From positions 128,098 to 192,097 of IMG/VR virus record IMGVR_UViG_3300045974_000166: DNA of 64,000 bases, one strand, 5' to 3'. Each line of letters opens with the position of its first letter. Within the stretch, counting starts at the first letter, position 1. This DNA comes from a virus. Positions 15,843-40,315 of the stretch are shown piece by piece. The position numbers and the translations under genes were made by a program. The notes below the pieces were generated by a model that did no database searches, had not been told where the DNA came from, and saw only the letters and a list, made by a program, of their open reading frames with translations.

Positions 15843-16174
15843 GTGATTACATGGAATTTAGAGGTAAGTGTAAAGAACTATCCGAAGCTGCATGTTTAGA
15901 TGATCCAACACTTAAATTAGTTCGAGGTCATTACTATTGTCCAATTTGGAATTCAGAAGAACAACATTGGTGGACAGTGAAAGAAGATGGGACGATTTAT
16001 GATCCATCTAAAGCTCAATTTCCATCTAAGGGACTTGGTACGTACACAGAATTTTCTGGTATGGTTGAATGTTCTGAATGCGGAAAAGAAATGAAAGAAG
16101 AAGATGCAAGTTTCGATAGTAACTATGCATTTTGTTCTTATAAATGTCATGGTAGATTTGTAGGAGTATTTTAA
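15839..16174 (+). CDS. hypothetical protein with Cys motifs
   Basis: HWW, CSECG, FCSYKC. Confidence 0.75.
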   Translation: MSDYMEFRGKCKELSEAACLDDPTLKLVRGHYYCPIWNSEEQHWWTVKEDGTIYDPSKAQFPSKGLGTYTEFSGMVECSECGKEMKEEDASFDSNYAFCSYKCHGRFVGVF

Positions 16175-16440
16175 TGAAACCGGTTTACACATTAGAAAAT
16201 TGGGCAATAATATATGCCGTGGATAGTCCATATACGGCGCCCGAGGCTGCAGTGCCTTGTTTAGTGGGGGATAGAAATGGACTTTACGTAAAGACATCTA
16301 GACTTCTTGGCAAATCTGGGAACTATGTGGTAACACAGAATTCTCTGTACAAGCTAGGGGAACCAGATCCAGAGTACGAAGCAGCTTATCCCGGTGCTCG
16401 TGGCCGAATGTTTACATCGTTGCAGAATGTAGAAGTATGA
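16174..16440 (+). CDS. hypothetical protein
   Basis: TAATG coupling. Confidence 0.7.
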   Translation: MKPVYTLENWAIIYAVDSPYTAPEAAVPCLVGDRNGLYVKTSRLLGKSGNYVVTQNSLYKLGEPDPEYEAAYPGARGRMFTSLQNVEV

Positions 16441-17029: not shown

Positions 17030-17241
17030 TGTCTAGAGTAACTATGTCCGCGGCGTTCATTGTAAGCAACCCAGATGGTTGGCTGTATTCTGTTCGGGCG
17101 GACGACGACAATTCCGAGTGCATTCGCATAGAACAAATCGATGACGGCAGTGGCACTCCGACTGGTCATCTTGTCTTCACAAAAGAGGAAGCAATGTTTA
17201 TTGCTACCGCACTACAACGACTTGCTATTAACAAGGACTAA
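16984..17241 (+). CDS. hypothetical protein (start probably 17029)
   Basis: TAATG coupling. Confidence 0.65.
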   Translation: MAEWSAVSVFDKGNVMSRVTMSAAFIVSNPDGWLYSVRADDDNSECIRIEQIDDGSGTPTGHLVFTKEEAMFIATALQRLAINKD

Positions 17242-18790: not shown

Positions 18791-19033
18791 TTGCATGATA
18801 TGAGGTACGATGAGTTTAGAATGGCTCACTATGCCACATATCAACCACAACTTCGTGGTCCAGGATTTGAAGATGAAAGCATCACCGATTGGAAAAACCG
18901 TTGGGTTACTCGTATGTCTTCTCTGCAAATCCGTACGTGCATGGTTCATGAATTTGGGCACTACAATAGTGAGTGGAAAGATGTTGCCGAGGTAGTTATT
19001 CCGGCGTCCGAATGGTATAAGGAAACAAAATGA
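18791..19033 (+). CDS. hypothetical protein
   Basis: tandem ORF. Confidence 0.55.
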   Translation: MHDMRYDEFRMAHYATYQPQLRGPGFEDESITDWKNRWVTRMSSLQIRTCMVHEFGHYNSEWKDVAEVVIPASEWYKETK

Positions 19034-20088
19034 CAGAAGTTTATGTTCGTAAAATGGCATCTATTCAAAAGATTGCCGAAGTAAAGGCTATCCCTGACGC
19101 AGACAAGATCTGTGCTTACAGGGTGAATGGCTGGTGGATTGTTGACCAAGTCGGCAAGTATGTCGTGGGTGATCTTGTTGTGTACGCAGAACCAGATTCT
19201 TTCATTCCGAGCACACTTGCACCTTTCTTGACGAAGCCAGGACATTTCCCCAAGACGTATCTTGGTGTCGAAGGTGAAAAACTTCGCACGATCCGTCTGC
19301 GCAAGCAATTGTCACAAGGGCTGTTGCTGCCATTTACTCCAGAAATTGCAATCAAGGGGTTGGGCGCTGGGCCTGGGGCAAAATTTTCGGATTATGAAGG
19401 TGCTGATGTTTCTGAATTTCTCGGCATTGTAAAGTGGGAAGCACCACCTGAGTTTACTTCTGCTGATGCTCGTGGATCATTCCCATCGTTCATCATCAAG
19501 ACTGACCAAGAACGTGTGCAAAACTGCTTCCGTGATATGGAAGAACATTTTGAACACCAAACATGGGAAGTCACAGAGAAGTGCGAAGGCTCTTCAATGA
19601 CCGTGTACCAACGTCAAGGTGATTTTGGTGTTTGCTCACGCAACTTGGATTTGAAAGAATCTGAGGACAACACATTCTGGAAGATGGCTATTGAGCTTGG
19701 TCTGAAGGAAAAGTTGATCGAAGGTGGGTTGAATATTGCTATTCAAGGTGAACTTTGTGGTCCTGGAATTCAGGGTAACATTTACAACTTGACCAAGCAC
19801 ATGTTCTTCGTGTTTGATATTTTTGACATTGACAAGTTTGAATACTTTAACCCGCACGAACGTAGGTTCCATACAGCACTGCTTGGGTTGACTGATGTGC
19901 CTGTGCTTGAACGTGAAGCAAATCTGGTTGGGCATACATGTGAATCACTGCTATCAAAGGCCGATGGCCAGTCTGTACTTGGGTTGATTGGATGCCTGCG
20001 TGAAGGTGAAGTTTACAAGTTGAATTCGAATCGGCGTATTTCATTCAAAGCAGTGTCAAATAAATATCTTGAAAAGGTTAAGGATTAA
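19030..20088 (+). CDS. ATP-dependent RNA ligase, DRB0094/Rnl2-like with N-terminal OB-like domain
   Basis: IPDADKI, LRTIRLRKQLSQGL, KTDQER, TEKCEGSS (motif I), QGELCGPGIQGN, EGEVYK, SFKAVS. Confidence 0.9.
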   Translation: MTEVYVRKMASIQKIAEVKAIPDADKICAYRVNGWWIVDQVGKYVVGDLVVYAEPDSFIPSTLAPFLTKPGHFPKTYLGVEGEKLRTIRLRKQLSQGLLLPFTPEIAIKGLGAGPGAKFSDYEGADVSEFLGIVKWEAPPEFTSADARGSFPSFIIKTDQERVQNCFRDMEEHFEHQTWEVTEKCEGSSMTVYQRQGDFGVCSRNLDLKESEDNTFWKMAIELGLKEKLIEGGLNIAIQGELCGPGIQGNIYNLTKHMFFVFDIFDIDKFEYFNPHERRFHTALLGLTDVPVLEREANLVGHTCESLLSKADGQSVLGLIGCLREGEVYKLNSNRRISFKAVSNKYLEKVKD

Positions 20089-22894: not shown

Positions 22895-22923
22895 TTTACA
22901 CATAATGCAAATTGTGGTATAAT
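22895..22923 (+). promoter_or_regulatory. early promoter, RNA array
   Basis: TTTACA-17-TATAAT. Confidence 0.85.
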
Positions 22924-22931
22924 TAATCTTT

Positions 22932-22972
22932 CAAACAGATCATCGAATTTGTTTGTTTAGTTCCTTAACAAT
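22932..22972 (+). promoter_or_regulatory. boxB-like hairpin plus boxA-like element
   Basis: CAAACAGA-TCATCGAA-TTTGTTTG then GTTCCTTAACAAT. Confidence 0.6.
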
Positions 22973-23079
22973 ATAGTAGACAAGATTCCTTGCATTGACG
23001 ACATAAAAAGTGTGTCCTCGATCGTGAGATTACAGGTGCTAACAGATAGGGTAAAACGTATCCAAGGCAAGTGTGAGGA

Positions 23080-23159
23080 GTCATTTTGAAGTATCGTAGG
23101 TGATCCAAACTGCTCCACGAGGTTTGTGGTAGGTGATCTGGACGGTATTTCAAAATGAC
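23080..23159 (+). ncRNA. long-stem element B1
   Basis: GTCATTTTGAAGTAT / GTATTTCAAAATGAC. Confidence 0.6.
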
Positions 23160-23241
23160 ATTTTGAAGTATTTTAGTTTGAACGTACTCCTGGATCTTAA
23201 TTGAAAAAGGCACGCCAGTATTCCTAAAGTATTTCAAAATG
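23159..23241 (+). ncRNA. long-stem element B2
   Basis: CATTTTGAAGTATTTTAG / CTAAAGTATTTCAAAATG. Confidence 0.6.
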
Positions 23242-23315
23242 ATTATCCCAAGACAATAGCGCAACGATAAGATCCGTGCAGACACAATTCTACAATAGCA
23301 GCACGATATTGGGAT

Positions 23316-23407
23316 GTCATTTTAAAACATACTTAGATGCTAGTTCGATTCTAGGCCTGGGTAAGAGTAGCATAATTTGGCAATGCGAACGTATGTTTTA
23401 AAATGAT
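23316..23407 (+). ncRNA. long-stem element B3 with permuted T-arm then D-arm cargo
   Basis: GTCATTTTAAAACATAC / GTATGTTTTAAAATGAT; CTAG-TTCGATT-CTAG precedes TA-GCAT-AATTTGGCA-ATGC. Confidence 0.65.
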
Positions 23408-23445
23408 TGTCTGATTGTGCATTAGTAGTTTAAGCAGAGGAAGAC

Positions 23446-23535
23446 GTCATTTTGAAGTATTTTGTGTAATTCCCGTCTCAACGGTATGCCGTCCCAACAG
23501 CTAACCGCGTAGGTAACAAAGTATTTCAAAATGAT
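23446..23535 (+). ncRNA. long-stem element B4
   Basis: GTCATTTTGAAGTATTTTGT / ACAAAGTATTTCAAAATGAT. Confidence 0.6.
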
Positions 23536-23540
23536 TTTAT

Positions 23541-23634
23541 GGGCTAACACCGGTAGGATCCGGCCAGTGGTCGTCAATGACTCAGTATGGAATGAAAGCT
23601 TTGAAGTAGGTTCGAGTCCTACCTTGGTCCACCA
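23541..23634 (+). pseudogene. atypical tRNA-like element (possible GTC loop)
   Basis: GGGCTAA/TTGGTCC acceptor, GTAGG-TTCGAGT-CCTAC T-arm, ACCA end; D and anticodon arms irregular. Confidence 0.45.
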
Positions 23635-23841
23635 ATTTTATTCCTCGGACTGGAAATACAGTGATGAATCCGTAAGCCGCTCGATAGCCCAAGGGTCACT
23701 GTATAGTTGTGTTTGGAGTTAATATTACCAAGCACAGTGAAGTTAGATTCTTCATAGGGGAGCCAAATCACGCTTAGAGGTTGGGTGAAACCTCCGAGTA
23801 CTTAAATGTACAATCCGCAGTACAGTGAGAAGCCCTGCGTT

Positions 23842-23907
23842 TATTTTAAAGCACATTGCCTGTGCGGACACAATGAGAAACATAGGTTCAAAGTGTGCTT
23901 TAAAATG
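23842..23907 (+). ncRNA. long-stem element B5
   Basis: TATTTTAAAGCACAT / GTGTGCTTTAAAATG. Confidence 0.55.
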
Positions 23908-23958
23908 GAATTAGCAAGAGTAATTAACTTGCTCCATTATCGGGAGTCATGACCCGAT

Positions 23959-24050
23959 GAACTCGTAGTGATGGAATTGGTAGACATAGGGCCCTTTCCG
24001 GGTCCTGCCGTAAAAAGCGTACAGGTTCGAGTCCTGTCTACAATGAGTTC
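23959..24050 (+). pseudogene. class II tRNA-like element without CCA, extended terminal stem
   Basis: Leu-type D-arm GGAATTGGTAGAC, GGGCC-CTTTCCG-GGTCC, ACAGG-TTCGAGT-CCTGT, GAACTC/GAGTTC. Confidence 0.55.
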
Positions 24051-24051
24051 G

Positions 24052-24161
24052 CATTTTAAAGTATTCTGCAACGGCCGATTGTGGTCAAATAGACGAAGAG
24101 CGTATAAGGTTGGTACCAACCTAAATCCCAGTAGGTTTATGAAGTAGAATGCTTTAAAATG
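24052..24161 (+). ncRNA. long-stem element B6
   Basis: CATTTTAAAGTATTCTGC / GTAGAATGCTTTAAAATG. Confidence 0.6.
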
Positions 24162-24283
24162 ATTTCAATCCACAATCCTCGCTCATCTGGGGATTACAAT
24201 ATGGGAATTAACCCTAAATGCGATGAGGCATTGACATCCTGTAAGGGTGTATAGCTTGAATTAACAGGGTGGATCGAAATGAT

Positions 24284-24433
24284 TTTATAGTTGAAGGCAT
24301 TGCACTATCTGAGAAACACATCAGTAGGGTTGCTCCTACACCGGTGTGAAAAGTCGGAATTCGTTCTTCGCAGAGTTCAATAACCGTATTGGGACGAAGG
24401 TAAAGTGTTTTGAACAGTGCCTTCAACTATAAA
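24284..24433 (+). ncRNA. long-stem element B7, multi-hairpin cargo
   Basis: TTTATAGTTGAAGGCATTG / CAGTGCCTTCAACTATAAA. Confidence 0.6.
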
Positions 24434-24835: not shown

Positions 24836-24864
24836 TTTACACATATTGATGAATGTTTTATAAT
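24836..24864 (+). promoter_or_regulatory. early promoter
   Basis: TTTACA-17-TATAAT. Confidence 0.85.
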
Positions 24865-25174: not shown

Positions 25175-25263
25175 ATCATTCCGAAGCATAAAGCAACCGT
25201 GGCAGAGATCGTCACAACTAACCATGGAATAGATGTGTTGCTCCATGTATGCTTCGGAATGAT
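25175..25263 (+). ncRNA. long-stem element B8
   Basis: 16-bp ATCATTCCGAAGCATA / TATGCTTCGGAATGAT. Confidence 0.6.
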
Positions 25264-25363: not shown

Positions 25364-25442
25364 TGACCATAAGCCGACAAGGTGTTAGGCGCTTGACTGT
25401 TAATCAAGAATGAGGTAGGTTCGATTCCTACATGGTCAGCCA
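25364..25442 (+). tRNA. tRNA-Asn(GTT)
   Basis: loop CTGTTAA, G73, CCA. Confidence 0.92.
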
Positions 25443-25709: not shown

Positions 25710-25862
25710 TTTGAAGTGTAGATGTTGAGAACACAGGAACTCGAAAGCCCTGTAAGCAGATTTAGCGATCTATGTACCAACTATTACTACGTATCTCTAA
25801 CCCACCGCGGCTAGTATTCATGGGTAAAATGGTTCCGAATGAGGGAGACGGAACACTTCAAA
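25710..25862 (+). ncRNA. long-stem element B9
   Basis: TTTGAAGTGT / ACACTTCAAA enclosing four hairpins. Confidence 0.5.
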
Positions 25863-25871
25863 TTCATTTTT

Positions 25872-25926
25872 AGGTTCCGTTCAGCAAATTCAAAAATTTC
25901 ACTTTTAATGAAAAAATAAGGAACCT
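25872..25926 (+). ncRNA. Y-RNA-like element Y2 with Lys anticodon stem-loop
   Basis: AGGTTCC-GTTCAGCAA ... TTTCA-CTTTTAA-TGAAA ... GGAACCT-GTT. Confidence 0.65.
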
Positions 25927-25934
25927 GTTATTTT

Positions 25935-26011: not shown

Positions 26012-26386
26012 ATACTAAGTTGTTTGCTAGTAGTAGAGTAGATGGAAACCGAGCCGGAAAGATGTTCCGGTCTTCACAGAAATGTGACAAACGATAAGCA
26101 AAGTCGGTCCAGTAGGGAGTCGAAAGCAAACAATGGCGGAAAGACCTGCCGAGGACAGAAGTTAAGATCATACACAGACGGCCCACATGGTACCGACTGG
26201 CAATTCGATCCTAACGCCGTGTATTCCTTCCCAAATTGAATCAAGTGGAAAGCAAGAGCCACAAAGTAAATGTTAGATGATCATGGCTGCTCGGTCATCT
26301 TTGCTGTGATACACGGCGTCAGTTGTCCGCAAGGGTAGCAATTGAGAAACAACGGGGTAAGAATCCCAACTAAGAGTATGCCTCCA
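26012..26386 (+). ncRNA. candidate large structured RNA, about 375 nt
   Basis: long-range helices 26214-26224/26309-26319 and 26102-26108/26192-26198, terminal stem, GGG-GTAAGAAT-CCC, ends CCA. Confidence 0.6.
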
Positions 26387-26392
26387 ATTTTC

Positions 26393-26467: not shown

Positions 26468-26470
26468 ACA

Positions 26471-26520
26471 TTTGAAGACGCCAAGGTTACCTGCACCATA
26501 ACGGCAAGCAGGACTTCAAA
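26471..26520 (+). ncRNA. small stem-closed element B10
   Basis: TTTGAAG/CTTCAAA with inner CCTGC/GCAGG. Confidence 0.35.
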
Positions 26521-26528
26521 TTCAATTC

Positions 26529-27592: not shown

Positions 27593-28156
27593 ATGAATAG
27601 GTATCCATTAGTGCTAACACTAGATTCTGCAGGTATTCCGCAGAGATGGTCTACCTGGGAAGAAGGTGTCGTGGCAAAATACAAAGGCGTTATCGCTTGG
27701 TCACTTGGTGAAGAAACCATCTACCGGGGCGGTAACTCAAGACTTACTGGCGAACAATCAACCGTAGCAGTTCCATCTATTATTGCTATTCGATCTATGG
27801 GTCGTACAAAGAACCGAGCAGTGCCACTTACAAACAAGAATTTGTTTGGGCGTGACCGGAACATTTGTTGTTACTGTGGTACTCATGTGAAAGATCATGA
27901 CGCTACACGTGACCATATTGTTCCGTATGCTAAGAAAGGTACGAACGTTTGGATGAATGTTGTTACTGCATGTAAGCCTTGCAATAACTATAAGGATGAC
28001 AAAACTGTAGAACAAGCTGGGCTAGAGATGCTATATGCACCTTATGTCCCAGATCGTGCAGAAGCTTTGATTCTTGCCAACCGTAACATTTTGGCAGATC
28101 AAATGGAATTCTTATTGGCACATTTGCCTAAGCATTCTCGGGCACGACCACATTAG
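27593..28156 (+). CDS. HNH endonuclease (McrA/HNH_5-like)
   Basis: NLFGRDRNICCYCG, TRDHIVP, NVVTACKPCNNYK. Confidence 0.92.
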   Translation: MNRYPLVLTLDSAGIPQRWSTWEEGVVAKYKGVIAWSLGEETIYRGGNSRLTGEQSTVAVPSIIAIRSMGRTKNRAVPLTNKNLFGRDRNICCYCGTHVKDHDATRDHIVPYAKKGTNVWMNVVTACKPCNNYKDDKTVEQAGLEMLYAPYVPDRAEALILANRNILADQMEFLLAHLPKHSRARPH

Positions 28157-28250: not shown

Positions 28251-28362
28251 AGGATCAGTTCAGCATTTAATATACCAAGCAGCTTGTTGTGAGTTCGATT
28301 CTCACCTTCCGAGTAATCGGTTGTAGTTCAACGGTAGAACAGCCGCCAATTAAAGTGATCCT
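28251..28362 (+). ncRNA. Y-RNA-like element Y4, YrlA-type circularly permuted tRNA module
   Basis: AGGATCA-GTTCAGCA; T-arm GTGAG-TTCGATT-CTCAC; acceptor closed by CCGA-GTAA-TCGG; TA-GTTC-AACGGTA-GAAC D-arm; TGATCCT. Confidence 0.8.
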
Positions 28363-28373
28363 GCTAAATATAC

Positions 28374-30336: not shown

Positions 30337-30410
30337 GGGGTTGAAACTTTAAAGTGAAGTACCGGTCTTTTAAACCGGCTAATTCGGAGCGTTACCGAAC
30401 TACCCTACCA
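30337..30410 (+). tRNA. tRNA-Lys(TTT)
   Basis: loop CTTTTAA, T-loop AGCGTTA, CCA. Confidence 0.85.
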
Positions 30411-30505
30411 TATCTAAATACACTATCGTTTGATCAACGACGCTTGGAGCTACCGGAACAGCATGCACCGGGTGAGGTTCGATTCCTCTAGTGTATTTAG
30501 ATATG
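30409..30505 (+). ncRNA. long-stem element B11 with tRNA-like cargo
   Basis: 17-bp CATATCTAAATACACTA / TAGTGTATTTAGATATG; inner GAGG-TTCGATT-CCTC. Confidence 0.6.
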
Positions 30506-30579
30506 GTACAGTAGCATTAAGATAATGCAACATCTTCATACGGTGTCCTAAGTGGGTTTGATTCCCACCCGTACCACCA
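30505..30579 (+). tRNA. tRNA(CAT), Met or Ile2
   Basis: loop TTCATAC, CCA. Confidence 0.85.
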
Positions 30580-38335: not shown

Positions 38336-38452
38336 AGGATCGGTTCTGCAATATTAAAAATTAAAGGACGTTGCTTGATACCCGGACAACAAACTCCGGA
38401 TTCAGTAACACACAAGCTCTAGATCTTGTAAAAAATCTATAAAGACGATCCT
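38336..38452 (+). ncRNA. Y-RNA-like element Y5
   Basis: AGGATCG-GTTCTGCAA ... CGATCCT-GTT. Confidence 0.65.
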
Positions 38453-38468
38453 GTTAAAATTTGATTAG

Positions 38469-38584
38469 AGGTTGGGTTCAGCAAATACTTAGCGGCTTCG
38501 CGGCCGCACCTAGTAAGATGCCTTCGGGTATCACAGTGAGTTTGGAATGTCTCACTGCAAAAACAAAAAGTACAAAACCAACCT
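38469..38584 (+). ncRNA. Y-RNA-like element Y6
   Basis: AGGTTGG-GTTCAGCAA ... CCAACCT-GTT; two TTCG hairpins inside. Confidence 0.65.
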
Positions 38585-38595
38585 GTTATTTGTAA

Positions 38596-38853
38596 AGGAT
38601 GAGTACAGCATTTAAAATACAAGCTAATGTCCGAAGAATGTGCCGGTAGGATGATAGAAATATCAGCTCTGATGATTTAAAATCAGGGCCACAGAAGGAA
38701 CGGGATAGGTCGGCAAAGTACCGAATATATTGTCTCTGGTAGAAAAATCACAGAGACTAGGTAACATGAATTGTTGCTAGGGTCGCAGTAACTGAACCAA
38801 AACACAGGGGATGCAGGCGACCAGAACACTAAAATACTACGTTACACCATCCT
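38596..38853 (+). ncRNA. Y-RNA-like element Y7, large multi-hairpin cargo
   Basis: AGGATG-AGTACAGCAT ... CATCCT-GTT. Confidence 0.6.
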
Positions 38854-38896
38854 GTTAGTTTAGGTCGATATTGACCTGTTATAGAAAGAGAATATT

Positions 38897-40315
38897 ATGA
38901 ACGCATTCGTAAACGCCATTGCTGAACAAATTCAACGTACCGAAAACGGTATGAAGGCTCGTGCATCCACAGCTAACGCCTGTGTTGACCTGTTTTTCGC
39001 TATCGGTGCAAGCCGTGGCAAGAACATCATCCCTCAATTCACGGCGGCATTCGTAGAGAACTCTGACCTGGCTCTCCGCATCGTTGCGTGGGCTCGTGAC
39101 GTTCGTGGTGGTGCGGGTGAACGTGAAATCTTCCGTTCGGTGCTTTCACATCTCGAAACCGCTAATCCAGCGGCCGCTGTGGCTCTTGTTAAGAAGGTGC
39201 CTGAATTGGGCCGCTTCGATGATCTGTTGATCTTCAAGACTAAGCCTCTGAAGGAAACTGCTTACACTATCTTGGGTGACGCTCTGCGCGCTCAAAATGG
39301 TCTGGCGGCAAAGTGGACTCCTCGTAAGGGTGATGTCGCACGTGAAATCCGTGAGTTCTTCGGTATGAGCCCAAAGTTTTACCGCAAGTCTTTGGTGACA
39401 ATGTCTACTACTGTTGAGCAACAAATGTGTGCCGGCAAGTGGGATGACATCAACTACTCCCATGTGCCTTCGGTTGCTCATGCACGTTACAAGAAGGCCT
39501 TTGGTCGCCACGGTACAACCTATGCTGAGTACATCACCAAGTTGGTTAAGGGTGATGACCCAACTGTGAAGATCAATGCTTCGGCAATCTTCCCACATGA
39601 CGTGCTGAAGGGTCGTATCGACGGCTACGACATGACTTGGAATAAGCAAGAGCTCGATGTGATCGAAGCTCAATGGGCTGCTCTGCCTAACTACATTGGT
39701 GACGCTTCGGTGTTGCCATTGGTTGACGTGTCTGGCTCGATGACTTGTCCAGCGGGTAATAAGGGTACAACTACTTGTTTGGAAATTGCAGTGTCTCTGG
39801 GCCTGTACTTTGCAGACAAGAACAAGGGTGCCTTTAAGGACTGTATGCTGACTTTCAGCGACAAGCCACAGTTGGTGAAGCTGAAGGGCAACATCAACGA
39901 GAAGATCAACCAAATGGTCGCCGCTGATTGGGGCATGCGTACTAATCTGCACTCGGCATTCAACACAATCTTGGATGCAGCAGTGAAGAACTCTGTGCCA
40001 TCGGCAGATATGCCAGGTACTATGGTTATCTTCTCGGATATGCAATTCAATGCTTGTGTGCGTAACGATGACTCTGCCATGGAGATGATTGAACGTAAGT
40101 TTGCGGATGCAGGTTACACTGTGCCTAAGATTGTGTTCTGGAACTTGAACGCTGGTAACAACGTTCCTGTGAAGTTCGACAAGACTGGTGCCGCTCTGGT
40201 ATCTGGTTTCAGCCCAGCGGTTGCTTCGGCAATCTTGTCTGGTAATATAGACGACTTCACCCCAGAAGCGATCATGCTGAAGGCTGTGATGCAAACTCGA
40301 TACGATTTGGTATAA
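38897..40315 (+). CDS. DUF2828-family helical + vWA protein, Ro60/TROVE-like architecture
   Basis: RDVRGGAGER, GRFDDLL, AAKWTPR, vWA MIDAS VDVSGSM, TFSD, FSDMQF, VFWNL, VSGFS. Confidence 0.85.
   Translation: MNAFVNAIAEQIQRTENGMKARASTANACVDLFFAIGASRGKNIIPQFTAAFVENSDLALRIVAWARDVRGGAGEREIFRSVLSHLETANPAAAVALVKKVPELGRFDDLLIFKTKPLKETAYTILGDALRAQNGLAAKWTPRKGDVAREIREFFGMSPKFYRKSLVTMSTTVEQQMCAGKWDDINYSHVPSVAHARYKKAFGRHGTTYAEYITKLVKGDDPTVKINASAIFPHDVLKGRIDGYDMTWNKQELDVIEAQWAALPNYIGDASVLPLVDVSGSMTCPAGNKGTTTCLEIAVSLGLYFADKNKGAFKDCMLTFSDKPQLVKLKGNINEKINQMVAADWGMRTNLHSAFNTILDAAVKNSVPSADMPGTMVIFSDMQFNACVRNDDSAMEMIERKFADAGYTVPKIVFWNLNAGNNVPVKFDKTGAALVSGFSPAVASAILSGNIDDFTPEAIMLKAVMQTRYDLV

What the first reader, a model, noticed from the sequence alone, without database searches (positions are those of the whole stretch)
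23080..24433. Array of variable RNA cargoes each clamped by a shared 15-20 bp inverted repeat (family B)
Seen: seven units in 1.35 kb (23080, 23159, 23316, 23446, 23842, 24052, 24284), plus 25175, 25710, 26471 and 30409, are closed by long stems with consensus left arm (T)CATTTTRAARYAY and right arm RTRYTTYAAAATG. Arms co-vary within each unit and use G:U pairs, which favours RNA-level pairing. Interiors (about 35-135 nt) are unrelated to each other but structured; B3 holds a T-arm followed by a D-arm (permuted tRNA) and B11 a tRNA-like body. No ORF or tRNA explains them. Inference: a processing signal (RNase III-like) or a protein-binding handle that releases a library of small RNAs, a second constant-handle/variable-cargo system distinct from the Y-like family.
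Basis: partly seen in the sequence, partly recalled or inferred. Interest (0 to 1): 0.85.

Follow-up and report, generated by a model that had tools for sequence, protein, structure and literature searches.

The report
Stem-clamped phage small RNAs, Ro60-linked
A T4-like pond phage carries a row of small RNA genes that all end in the same long double-stranded "handle" but hold different interiors; in dozens of related phages the same handle RNA sits between the gene for a Ro60-like ring protein and the first tRNA, so it is probably an undescribed relative of the Ro60/Y-RNA particle.

Summary
Seven units share a 16-20 bp closing helix with the core UCAUUUUGAAGYAU / RURYUUCAAAAUGA: 23080, 23159, 23316, 23446, 23840, 24052 and 25175. 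The helix covaries (12 of 18 pairs compensated, 95.7% paired) and uses G:U on the + strand only. The units at 24284 and 30400 are long clamps with a different sequence. Those at 25710 and 26470 are short and weak.

The family is widespread. A strict handle pattern hit 41 further viral contigs, all with 16-23 bp stems, holding about 31 unrelated cargo classes. In 36 of them the unit starts 27-43 nt after a DUF2828/DUF7788 gene. It usually ends 0-3 nt before a tRNA. A model of the window's own copy of that gene (38897-40315) matches only Ro60/TROVE structures at the top. Unit B3 is a YrlA-type permuted tRNA mimic.

Best reading (about 0.4): these are modular, Y-RNA-like small RNAs cut out with the tRNAs, and the handle is the shared platform, probably for the Ro60-like protein. 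The main rival is an RNase III-type processing stem.

No binding, transcription or cleavage data exist. Rfam and the papers searched do not describe this family. Earlier scan notes report similar clamps in other phages, but not this handle sequence.

The parts
22895..22923 (+). Promoter-like site (TTTACA-17-TATAAT with TG) about 157 nt upstream of B1. It is the likely start of the transcript that carries B1-B7 and the first tRNAs.
   Evidence: 11 of 12 consensus matches. The next equally strong + strand site is at 24836, and no convincing + strand terminator lies between them.
23080..23159 (+). B1: 18-bp handle with two G:U pairs and a 44-nt cargo hairpin.
   Evidence: z -6.9; 50.4 bits on +, 31.4 on -. 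An ortholog with a changed inner hairpin lies in G002 (L157 5938-6019).
23159..23241 (+). B2: 18-bp handle that abuts B1 (they share base 23159), with a 47-nt cargo.
   Evidence: 63 bits. Orthologs lie at L020 13666-13753 and L157 5774-5864.
23316..23407 (+). B3: 17-bp handle carrying a YrlA-type permuted tRNA mimic, in the order variable loop, T-arm, mini acceptor hairpin, D-arm.
   Evidence: Rfam YrlA RF02553 at 28.7 bits, E 0.001, below the gathering score of 69. R1 scores it 56.1 bits. The module is almost identical in the unrelated contig L181 2793-2889, while the inner handle differs.
23446..23535 (+). B4: 20-bp handle with a 50-nt cargo, followed 5 nt later by a tRNA-like gene with an encoded CCA (23541-23630).
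   Evidence: z -5.5; 59.8 bits. The close relative L020 has a different, tRNA-like cargo at this position.
23840..23909 (+). B5: 18-bp handle (UUUAUUUUAAAGCACAUU) with a 34-nt cargo.
   Evidence: 47 bits.
24052..24161 (+). B6: 18-bp handle with a 74-nt cargo. It starts 6 nt after the tRNA gene at 23962-24045.
   Evidence: 66.1 bits.
24284..24433 (+). B7: 19-bp clamp of a different sequence (UUUAUAGUUGAAGGCAUUG) around a 112-nt branched cargo. It ends 9 nt before tRNA-Ala.
   Evidence: (z -5.3). Model R1 does not score it. The whole unit is conserved in G002 (L157 6686-6826).
25175..25263 (+). B8: 16-bp perfect handle (AUCAUUCCGAAGCAUA) in which UU:AA has become CC:GG. It ends 7 nt before tRNA-Tyr.
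   Evidence: 61.5 bits. The L009 ortholog at 15936-16028 has UCAUUCUAAAGCAU.
25710..25862 (+). B9: weak candidate, a 10-bp stem UUUGAAGUGU/ACACUUCAAA around about 133 nt.
   Evidence: Read from the sequence. Not scored by R1. My fold cut off the right arm, so it says nothing about this stem.
26470..26521 (+). B10: weak candidate, an 8-bp stem AUUUGAAG/CUUCAAAU. It ends 7 nt before tRNA-Ile.
   Evidence: z -2.4. Not scored by R1.
30400..30514 (+). B11: 20-26 bp clamp of a different sequence around a cargo whose T-arm (GAGGUUCGAUUCCUC) abuts the 3' strand.
   Evidence: z -6.6; 32.7 bits.
38336..38857 (+). Three 'A-type' (Y-like) elements upstream of the Ro60-like gene: a 7-bp helix, then GU(U/A)C(A/U)GCA, ending in CUGUU. 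This is context, not family B.
   Evidence: The same elements lie upstream of the Ro60-like gene in 19 of 23 related loci.
38897..40315 (+). DUF2828/DUF7788 protein (472 aa), a Ro60 (TROVE + vWA) homolog by fold. It is the candidate protein partner.
   Evidence: Pfam PF11443 and PF25043. PHROG 850 'RNA-binding protein'. AF2 model with pLDDT 70. The top 13 Foldseek hits are all Ro60/TROVE structures, E 7e-9 to 4e-5.

Best explanation
The units are genes for small stable RNAs made from the same + strand transcripts as the phage tRNAs. Each RNA is closed by a conserved 16-20 bp terminal helix, the handle, which brings its 5' and 3' ends together and displays a variable interior module. In one case that module is a YrlA-type tRNA mimic. 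The downstream tRNA or tmRNA piece usually starts 0-3 nt after the helix. RNase P cleavage there would therefore release the RNA with an almost flush 3' end. The handle is the constant part that gives stability and a common recognition surface. Its most likely reader is the phage's Ro60-like (DUF2828/DUF7788) protein. That would make these RNAs a Y-RNA-like library whose modules bring different RNAs or enzymes to the ring, or act as decoys. Shown: the helix, its covariation and strand, its spread, cargo diversity and conservation, the tight spacing to tRNAs, the linkage to the Ro60-like gene, and the Ro60 fold of that protein. Inferred: transcription, the processing sites, and any protein binding.
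For: The helix is under RNA-level selection. 95.7% of cells pair, 12 of 18 pairs are compensated, and 0 of 500 shuffles reach this. Over 48 non-redundant units there are 713 Watson-Crick, 79 G:U and only 12 A:C cells. The model scores the + strand 20-30 bits above the - strand, also for five units in G002 that were not in the training set. The strand chosen by G:U equals the strand of the neighbouring gene in 36 of 36 loci.

The family is widespread. 43 viral contigs match the strict pattern, and all have 16-23 bp stems. A second handle variant, CCAUAUUGAA with a compensated pair, also occurs.

The cargo looks functional rather than filler. There are 31 cargo clusters. The B3 module is nearly identical in L181 while the inner handle differs. 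The Ro60-adjacent cargo class has covarying hairpins.

Linkage to Ro60: 36 of 41 contigs have the DUF2828 gene ending 27-43 nt upstream on the same strand. Three more have it elsewhere in the record. The two without it are fragments estimated at 5% and 29% complete. The protein folds like Ro60.

The architecture matches Y RNAs: a terminal stem formed by both ends, a variable module, and a YrlA hit for B3 (Chen et al. 2014, PMC4201824). Phage Ro60 proteins do bind neighbouring Y-like RNAs (phiLo, PMC12135203). For Bas63, whose Ro60-like gp130 sits upstream of tRNAs, the authors suggested that some 'tRNAs' may be Y RNAs (PMC11482910).

The helix ends 0-3 nt before the next tRNA in 23 of 30 distinct units.
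Against: There are no transcription, end-mapping or binding data, and no RNA run holds this phage.

In the window the Ro60-like gene is 15 kb from the array and is followed by a terminator. It keeps the A-type elements, while the B units stay with the tRNAs. So the tighter linkage is between B units and tRNAs. The adjacency to Ro60 may simply reflect the gene's usual place at the head of tRNA arrays.

The A-type elements are an equally good or better candidate partner. Earlier unchecked scan notes report them beside DUF2828 genes in many viruses.

The handle is a perfect helix. It lacks the bulge and the GNCGAAN0-1G / CGAA motif described for Ro60 binding, except for CCGAAG in B8.

All carriers may belong to one broad T4-like clade, so co-occurrence is not independent evidence.

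Positions 1-13 of the handle in the 41 contigs are conserved by the way they were found. Only the extension (positions 14-17, A-Y-U-G) and the variants found by the model are unbiased.

B3 scores far below the Rfam gathering score.
Confidence: 0.4

Rival explanations
1. The helices are processing stems. Host RNase III cuts the 16-23 bp duplex and so separates mRNA, tRNAs and the enclosed RNAs from a long precursor, as it does for the leader-trailer stems of rRNA operons and the T7 early sites. The enclosed RNAs may still be functional, but the handle has no dedicated protein partner and the Ro60-like protein is irrelevant to it.
For: The helix length and near-perfect pairing suit RNase III. 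The units sit exactly at junctions: between the Ro60-like mRNA and the first tRNA, between tRNAs, and before tmRNA pieces. Clamps of unrelated sequence do the same job at 24284 and 30400, and one in L009 encloses a complete tRNA-Asn. Earlier scan notes describe sequence-unrelated clamps beside tRNAs in phages without Ro60 (unchecked). Phage P1 has no match to this handle.
Against: A pure double-strand signal does not need the conserved primary sequence, which extends beyond the positions fixed by my search. It also does not need to be retained over 31 cargo classes. The phage encodes no RNase III, so this depends on the unknown host. Cleavage in mid-helix would destroy the clamp that the compensatory changes preserve along its full length, base included.
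Confidence: 0.3
2. The hairpins are passive leaders, insulators or stabilisers. A stable helix flush against the tRNA 5' end lets each tRNA fold independently. After RNase P cleavage it caps the 3' end of the upstream RNA (for example the Ro60-like mRNA) against 3' exonucleases. The interiors are evolutionary filler.
For: The helix ends 0-3 nt before the tRNA in 23 of 30 units. One unit regularly follows an mRNA. A cargo-less version exists in Felixounavirus TP1 (L186 5572-5616).
Against: Cargo modules are conserved across distant contigs and covary. One is an elaborate tRNA mimic. In the window seven units stand in a row, only some of them next to tRNAs and with no mRNA to protect.
Confidence: 0.12
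3. The arms act at the DNA level, as terminal inverted repeats of small mobile cassettes or as recombination sites that shuffle cargo. RNA pairing is incidental.
For: Unit order and content differ between close relatives. The order is B1-B2-spacer-B3 here and B2-spacer-B1 in G002. L020 lacks B3 and has another cargo where the window has B4. B1, B2 and B4 share identical arms, including the same G:U pairs.
Against: There are 79 G:U against 12 A:C cells, and the asymmetry agrees with gene orientation in 36 of 36 loci. Compensatory changes keep pairing within each unit. No transposase or recombinase accompanies the units. Recombination at the handles is better seen as a consequence of the shared sequence.
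Confidence: 0.05

Closest known systems
Bacterial and phage Y RNAs of the YrlA type with Ro60/Rsr (Rfam RF02553; Chen et al. 2014, PMC4201824)
   Same: A small RNA whose 5' and 3' ends pair in a long stem that carries a module. The module in B3 is a tRNA opened at the anticodon with T- and D-arms. The RNA is encoded next to a Ro60 homolog in relatives, and several are present per genome.
   Different: The handle is a perfect 16-20 bp helix with its own conserved sequence (UCAUUUUGAAG...). It has no bulge and, except in B8, no CGAA motif. Most cargoes are not tRNA mimics. There are up to seven or eight copies per genome, embedded in tRNA operons and flush against tRNA 5' ends. All scores are below the Rfam gathering score. 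Binding has not been shown.
Thermus phage phiLo Ro60 with Yrl1 and Yrl2 (PMC12135203; PDB 9KOP, 9L5Y)
   Same: A phage-encoded Ro60 ring with neighbouring small stem-closed RNAs. The phiLo structure is the best fold match of the window's protein.
   Different: In phiLo the two RNAs lie upstream of the gene and have a stem-bulge-stem with CGAA. That position resembles the A-type elements here more than the B-type units.
RNase III processing stems (rRNA operon leader-trailer helices, phage T7 early sites); role of RNase III in T4 tRNA precursor processing (from my own knowledge)
   Same: A long duplex formed by sequences flanking a stable RNA inside a polycistronic precursor.
   Different: Those stems are not a multi-copy sequence family with exchangeable interiors, and their sequence is not conserved between unrelated enclosed RNAs.
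T4 species 1 and species 2 RNAs (rnaC, rnaD) in the T4 tRNA cluster (from my own knowledge)
   Same: Small stable RNAs of unknown function, co-transcribed and co-processed with phage tRNAs in a T4-type phage.
   Different: I did not compare the sequences. In T4 there are two RNAs, not a handle family, and T4 has no Ro60-like gene that I know of.

Membership tests
Y RNA / YrlA (Rfam RF02553) | Score at or above the Rfam gathering threshold (69 bits) | tested here: not met
   B3 scores 28.7 bits and the other B units give no hit. No YrlA hit appears for the Ro60-adjacent unit of L038.
Y RNA / YrlA (Rfam RF02553) | Encoded close to a Ro60 ortholog (within 4 kb in Chen et al. 2014) | tested here: inconclusive
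   Met in 36 of 41 related contigs, at 27-43 nt downstream. Not met in the window itself, where the array is 15 kb from the gene.
Y RNA / YrlA (Rfam RF02553) | 5' and 3' ends pair in a long stem that encloses a large internal module | tested here: met
   The ends are predicted, not mapped.
Y RNA / YrlA (Rfam RF02553) | Ro60-binding motif GNCGAAN0-1G (CGAA) in the 5' strand of a bulged helix | tested here: not met
   The consensus is U-U-(G/A)-A-A-(G/A) in an unbulged helix. Only B8 reads CCGAAG.
Y RNA / YrlA (Rfam RF02553) | tRNA-like domain with T- and D-arms | tested here: inconclusive
   Present in B3 and its L181 ortholog. Other cargoes have T-arms only, or nothing tRNA-like.
Y RNA / YrlA (Rfam RF02553) | Physical association with the Ro60 protein | not testable with these tools
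   Needs pull-down, CLIP or gel shift.
Ro60 / TROVE protein family (for the partner gene at 38897-40315) | HEAT-repeat ring plus vWA domain fold | tested here: met
   AF2 model with pLDDT 70 and pTM 0.57. The top 13 Foldseek PDB hits are all Ro60/TROVE, aligned over about 500 columns, TM 0.38-0.53. There is no sequence-level PDB hit.
RNase III processing stem | About two turns of near-perfect double-stranded RNA flanking a stable RNA in a precursor | tested here: met
   16-23 bp stems. The position is between tRNAs and after an mRNA.
RNase III processing stem | Staggered cleavage within the stem by RNase III | not testable with these tools
   No RNA data are available. The phage has no RNase III gene of its own.
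Miniature inverted-repeat mobile element | Arms that need not pair as RNA: no strand asymmetry and no compensatory change | tested here: not met
   79 G:U against 12 A:C cells, and 12 of 18 pairs compensated.

The most novel reading that the evidence does not exclude
The phage carries a library of adaptor RNAs for its Ro60-like ring. One constant handle docks on the protein. Each of the many exchangeable cargoes (tRNA mimic, T-arm bodies, pseudoknotted hairpins) recruits or decoys a different host RNA enzyme or tRNA-targeting defence nuclease. Recombination at the handles lets phages swap adaptors. That would be a modular, RNA-programmed counter-defence or RNA-surveillance system far more diversified than any known Ro60/Y-RNA particle.
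Probability: 0.15. Interest if true: 0.9.

Novelty: new variant of a known kind. Interest (0 to 1): 0.72.

Why it matters
Ro60/Y-RNA particles are known from animals, some bacteria and a few phages, each with one to four Y RNAs. Here a single conserved handle carries dozens of different modules. It is multiplied to seven or eight copies in one genome, and it is wired into tRNA processing. If the handle binds the Ro60-like ring, this shows how a phage can diversify one RNA-protein machine by swapping RNA modules. It would also link to the report that a Ro60-like phage protein counters a bacterial defence system (PMC11482910). If instead the handle is a processing signal, it defines a sequence-specific punctuation system for phage stable-RNA operons. 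Either way, the family is a well-defined RNA with many members that is absent from Rfam. Cultured phages that appear to carry versions of it make it testable.

Tried and rejected
Sequencing runs: only four DNA runs (pond and wetland metagenomes) hold the stretch and no RNA holder is listed, so I did not lay reads.

DNA searches of the named-phage collection with the 3.7-kb region found only tRNA matches. A 111-nt Ro60-adjacent unit found nothing.

My first pattern scan (10 + 10 bases) was too loose and returned mostly chance hits. The 13 + 13 pattern was specific.

Rfam at permissive thresholds gave no family for any B unit except the sub-threshold YrlA hit on B3.

The phmmer search of the Ro60-like protein against PDB sequences was empty. 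The fold search was needed to show the relationship.

Pfam and PHROG searches of the small ORFs upstream of the array gave nothing, so no local candidate reader other than the Ro60-like protein emerged.

Among the 80 loci with the closest Ro60-like proteins (67-90% identity), most have no clamp or tRNA after the gene. Adjacency is therefore not universal.

Phage P1 has no match to the handle model, and neither does Aeromonas phage Aeh1. In Felixounavirus TP1 the whole-record search also found nothing at E <= 0.01; only the unfiltered search of the locus next to its Ro60-like gene gave a weak match (33.1 bits).

The ORFs that overlap the array (for example 22965-23285 on the - strand) are not supported. 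The region is rearranged unit by unit in relatives, and changes compensate across arms.
Full report
**Setting.** The window is bases 128098-192097 of a 192,097-bp virus record from a pond metagenome. It encodes a family B DNA polymerase, an RNA ligase (19030-20088), about 30 tRNAs between 23.9 and 30.6 kb, and a 472-aa DUF2828/DUF7788 protein at 38897-40315.

**Observation.**
- The arms are paired as inverted repeats of 13-20 nt around 38-112 nt. Every unit folds with the arms as closing stem, z -4 to -7.
- Genome-wide, 10 of the 14 uninterrupted + strand stems of at least 15 bp, with loops of 25-170 nt, lie in this 7.4-kb tRNA region.
- A promoter-like site at 22895-22923 precedes the array. 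No convincing + strand terminator follows before the tRNAs.

**RNA-level selection.**
- I aligned seven window units with six from relatives. The 18-bp helix pairs in 95.7% of cells, and 12 of 18 pairs show changes on both sides. None of 500 shuffles reached this, and slid registers gave 37-48%.
- A covariance model (R1) scores the seven window units at 47-66 bits on the + strand and 24-35 bits on the - strand. It adds only 30400-30514, at 32.7 bits.
- The units at 24284, 25710 and 26470 are therefore not members by sequence. 24284 and 30400 are long clamps of another sequence. 25710 and 26470 are short stems sharing UUUGAAG/CUUCAAA.

**Close relatives.**
- Contigs found through the RNA ligase carry the same kind of units.
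- G002 holds an independent array of five units plus the B7 ortholog.
- Order and content differ. The window has B1-B2-spacer-B3, while G002 has B2-spacer-B1. L020 lacks B3 and has a tRNA-like cargo where the window has B4. The shared arms therefore act as recombination points, while pairing is kept within each unit.

**A wide family.**
- The pattern CATTTTRAARYAY-N40-70-RTRYTTYAAAATG hits 43 viral contigs, of which two are the relatives above. The other 41 all have stems of 16-23 bp that extend beyond the pattern and contain G:U on one strand only.
- Over 48 non-redundant units there are 713 Watson-Crick, 79 G:U, 12 A:C and 60 other cells, and 31 cargo clusters.
- Positions 1-13 are fixed by the search, so their conservation in those contigs proves nothing. 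But positions 14-17 (A-Y-U-G) are also conserved.
- Model searches reveal a second variant, CCAUAUUGAA, with a compensated pair, and several units per contig.
- Cargo is not filler. The B3 module is almost identical in L181 while the inner handle differs. A tRNA-like cargo recurs in L020, G002 and L169. The commonest cargo class has covarying hairpins.

**Context.**
- In 36 of the 41 contigs a DUF2828/DUF7788 gene (60-66% identical to the window's) ends 27-43 nt upstream of the unit on the same strand.
- Two more have the gene just upstream in the full record, and one has it elsewhere. The two without it are fragments estimated at 5% and 29% complete.
- The strand inferred from G:U equals the gene strand in all 36.
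- The helix ends 0-3 nt before the next tRNA in 23 of 30 distinct units.
- In 19 of 23 loci with the full gene, one to three A-type elements precede it: a 7-bp helix, then GU(U/A)C(A/U)GCAA, ending in CUGUU.
- The common operon in this phage group is therefore: A-type elements, Ro60-like gene, one B-type unit, tRNAs.
- In the window and in most phages with the closest proteins, the gene keeps its A-type elements but is followed by a terminator. The B-type units stay with the tRNAs.
- B-like clamps also precede permuted tmRNA genes, in this genome and in Synechococcus phage BUCT-ZZ01.

**The protein.** An AlphaFold model (pLDDT 70) has Ro60/TROVE structures as its 13 best PDB matches. These include Thermus phage phiLo, Deinococcus Rsr, and Xenopus and human Ro60, with E 7e-9 to 4e-5. 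Homologs occur in about 700 named phages; some mycobacteriophage records annotate theirs as Ro-like RNA-binding protein, and felixounaviruses are among the carriers.

**Comparison with what is known.**
- Y RNAs are 80-130 nt, with a long stem formed by both ends that binds Ro60, and a variable module. YrlA has a tRNA-like module and lies near the Ro60 gene (PMC4201824). Phage phiLo Ro60 binds two neighbouring Y-like RNAs and host PNPase (PMC12135203).
- For phage Bas63, a Ro60-like protein directly upstream of tRNAs counters the ppl defence system, and the authors guessed that some of its 'tRNAs' are Y RNAs (PMC11482910).
- B3 matches YrlA at 28.7 bits, below the threshold of 69.
- The B handle lacks the bulge and, except in B8, the CGAA motif.
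- I found no paper and no Rfam family describing this handle (4, 7, 84).
- Earlier notes of this scan report the A-type/DUF2828 pairing and sequence-unrelated clamps beside tRNAs in other phages. None showed this handle on other DNA.

**Verdict.** The array is real, selected as + strand RNA, and belongs to a widespread phage RNA family with a constant handle and exchangeable, partly conserved modules.
- The best-supported mechanism is a set of stable small RNAs released together with tRNAs, with RNase P making the 3' end. The handle would be a common platform, most probably for the Ro60-like protein (about 0.4).
- An RNase III-type processing stem without a dedicated partner is the main rival (about 0.3).
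- The fact that B units follow the tRNAs rather than the Ro60-like gene when the two separate is the strongest point against the main reading.

Noticed in passing
window 23541-23630: A tRNA-like gene with a long variable region and an encoded CCA end. ARAGORN does not call it, and Rfam gives only a weak tRNA-Sec-like match (19.4 bits). Relatives have several further odd tRNA-like genes here, including a possible acceptor/T-arm minihelix (L020 14240-14310).
   Followed up: partly
window 23243-23315: A spacer between B2 and B3 closed by a 7-bp helix (AUCCCAA/UUGGGAU). It is conserved with its flanks in G002 (L157 5866-5937), so it is another small structured unit, not a family B member.
   Followed up: partly
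window 26012-26392: About 380 nt of non-coding sequence between tRNA genes, with no Rfam match. It is conserved in L009 but split there into two separate places (16030-16214 and 17071-17225).
   Followed up: no
window 25873-25927: An A-type element that matches Rfam Dicty_Class_I_RNA at 36.6 bits (gathering score 41.5). Earlier scan notes make the same link for A-type handles beside DUF2828 genes.
   Followed up: no
window 28251-28365: An A-type element carrying a YrlA-like T-arm/D-arm module (Rfam YrlA 31.3 bits). The same kind of tRNA mimic therefore sits on both handle types in one genome.
   Followed up: partly
own genome G000:C1:23506-23611, - strand (outside the window; L274 607-712): A 21-bp clamp (UUAUAGCUACAUUUUGAGUAU / AUGCUCAAAAUGUAGCUAUAA) with the B-like core lies about 45 nt upstream of a permuted tmRNA-like gene with tag ANDEKFALAA. 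Cyanophage BUCT-ZZ01 has a similar clamp directly before its permuted tmRNA.
   Followed up: partly
L009 16357-16456: In a relative, a complete tRNA-Asn(GUU) lacks an encoded CCA. It is enclosed by a 13-bp leader-trailer extension of its acceptor stem (a 20-bp clamp in all). The window's ortholog (25364-25442) is a normal tRNA with CCA.
   Followed up: no
L009 14792-15430; window 27593-28156: Homing-endonuclease-type genes sit inside the tRNA arrays. The window has an HNH gene. From my reading of its N-terminus, the ORF in the relative is GIY-YIG-like; I did not test this.
   Followed up: no
L187 4060-4330 (Synechococcus phage BUCT-ZZ01): Two tRNA genes just downstream of the Ro60-like gene share a nearly identical insert of about 40 nt (AAAACGCAUUCUGUAAAGAAUGAAUUCUGCAAUC) in the anticodon region. 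These may be introns or inserted elements.
   Followed up: no
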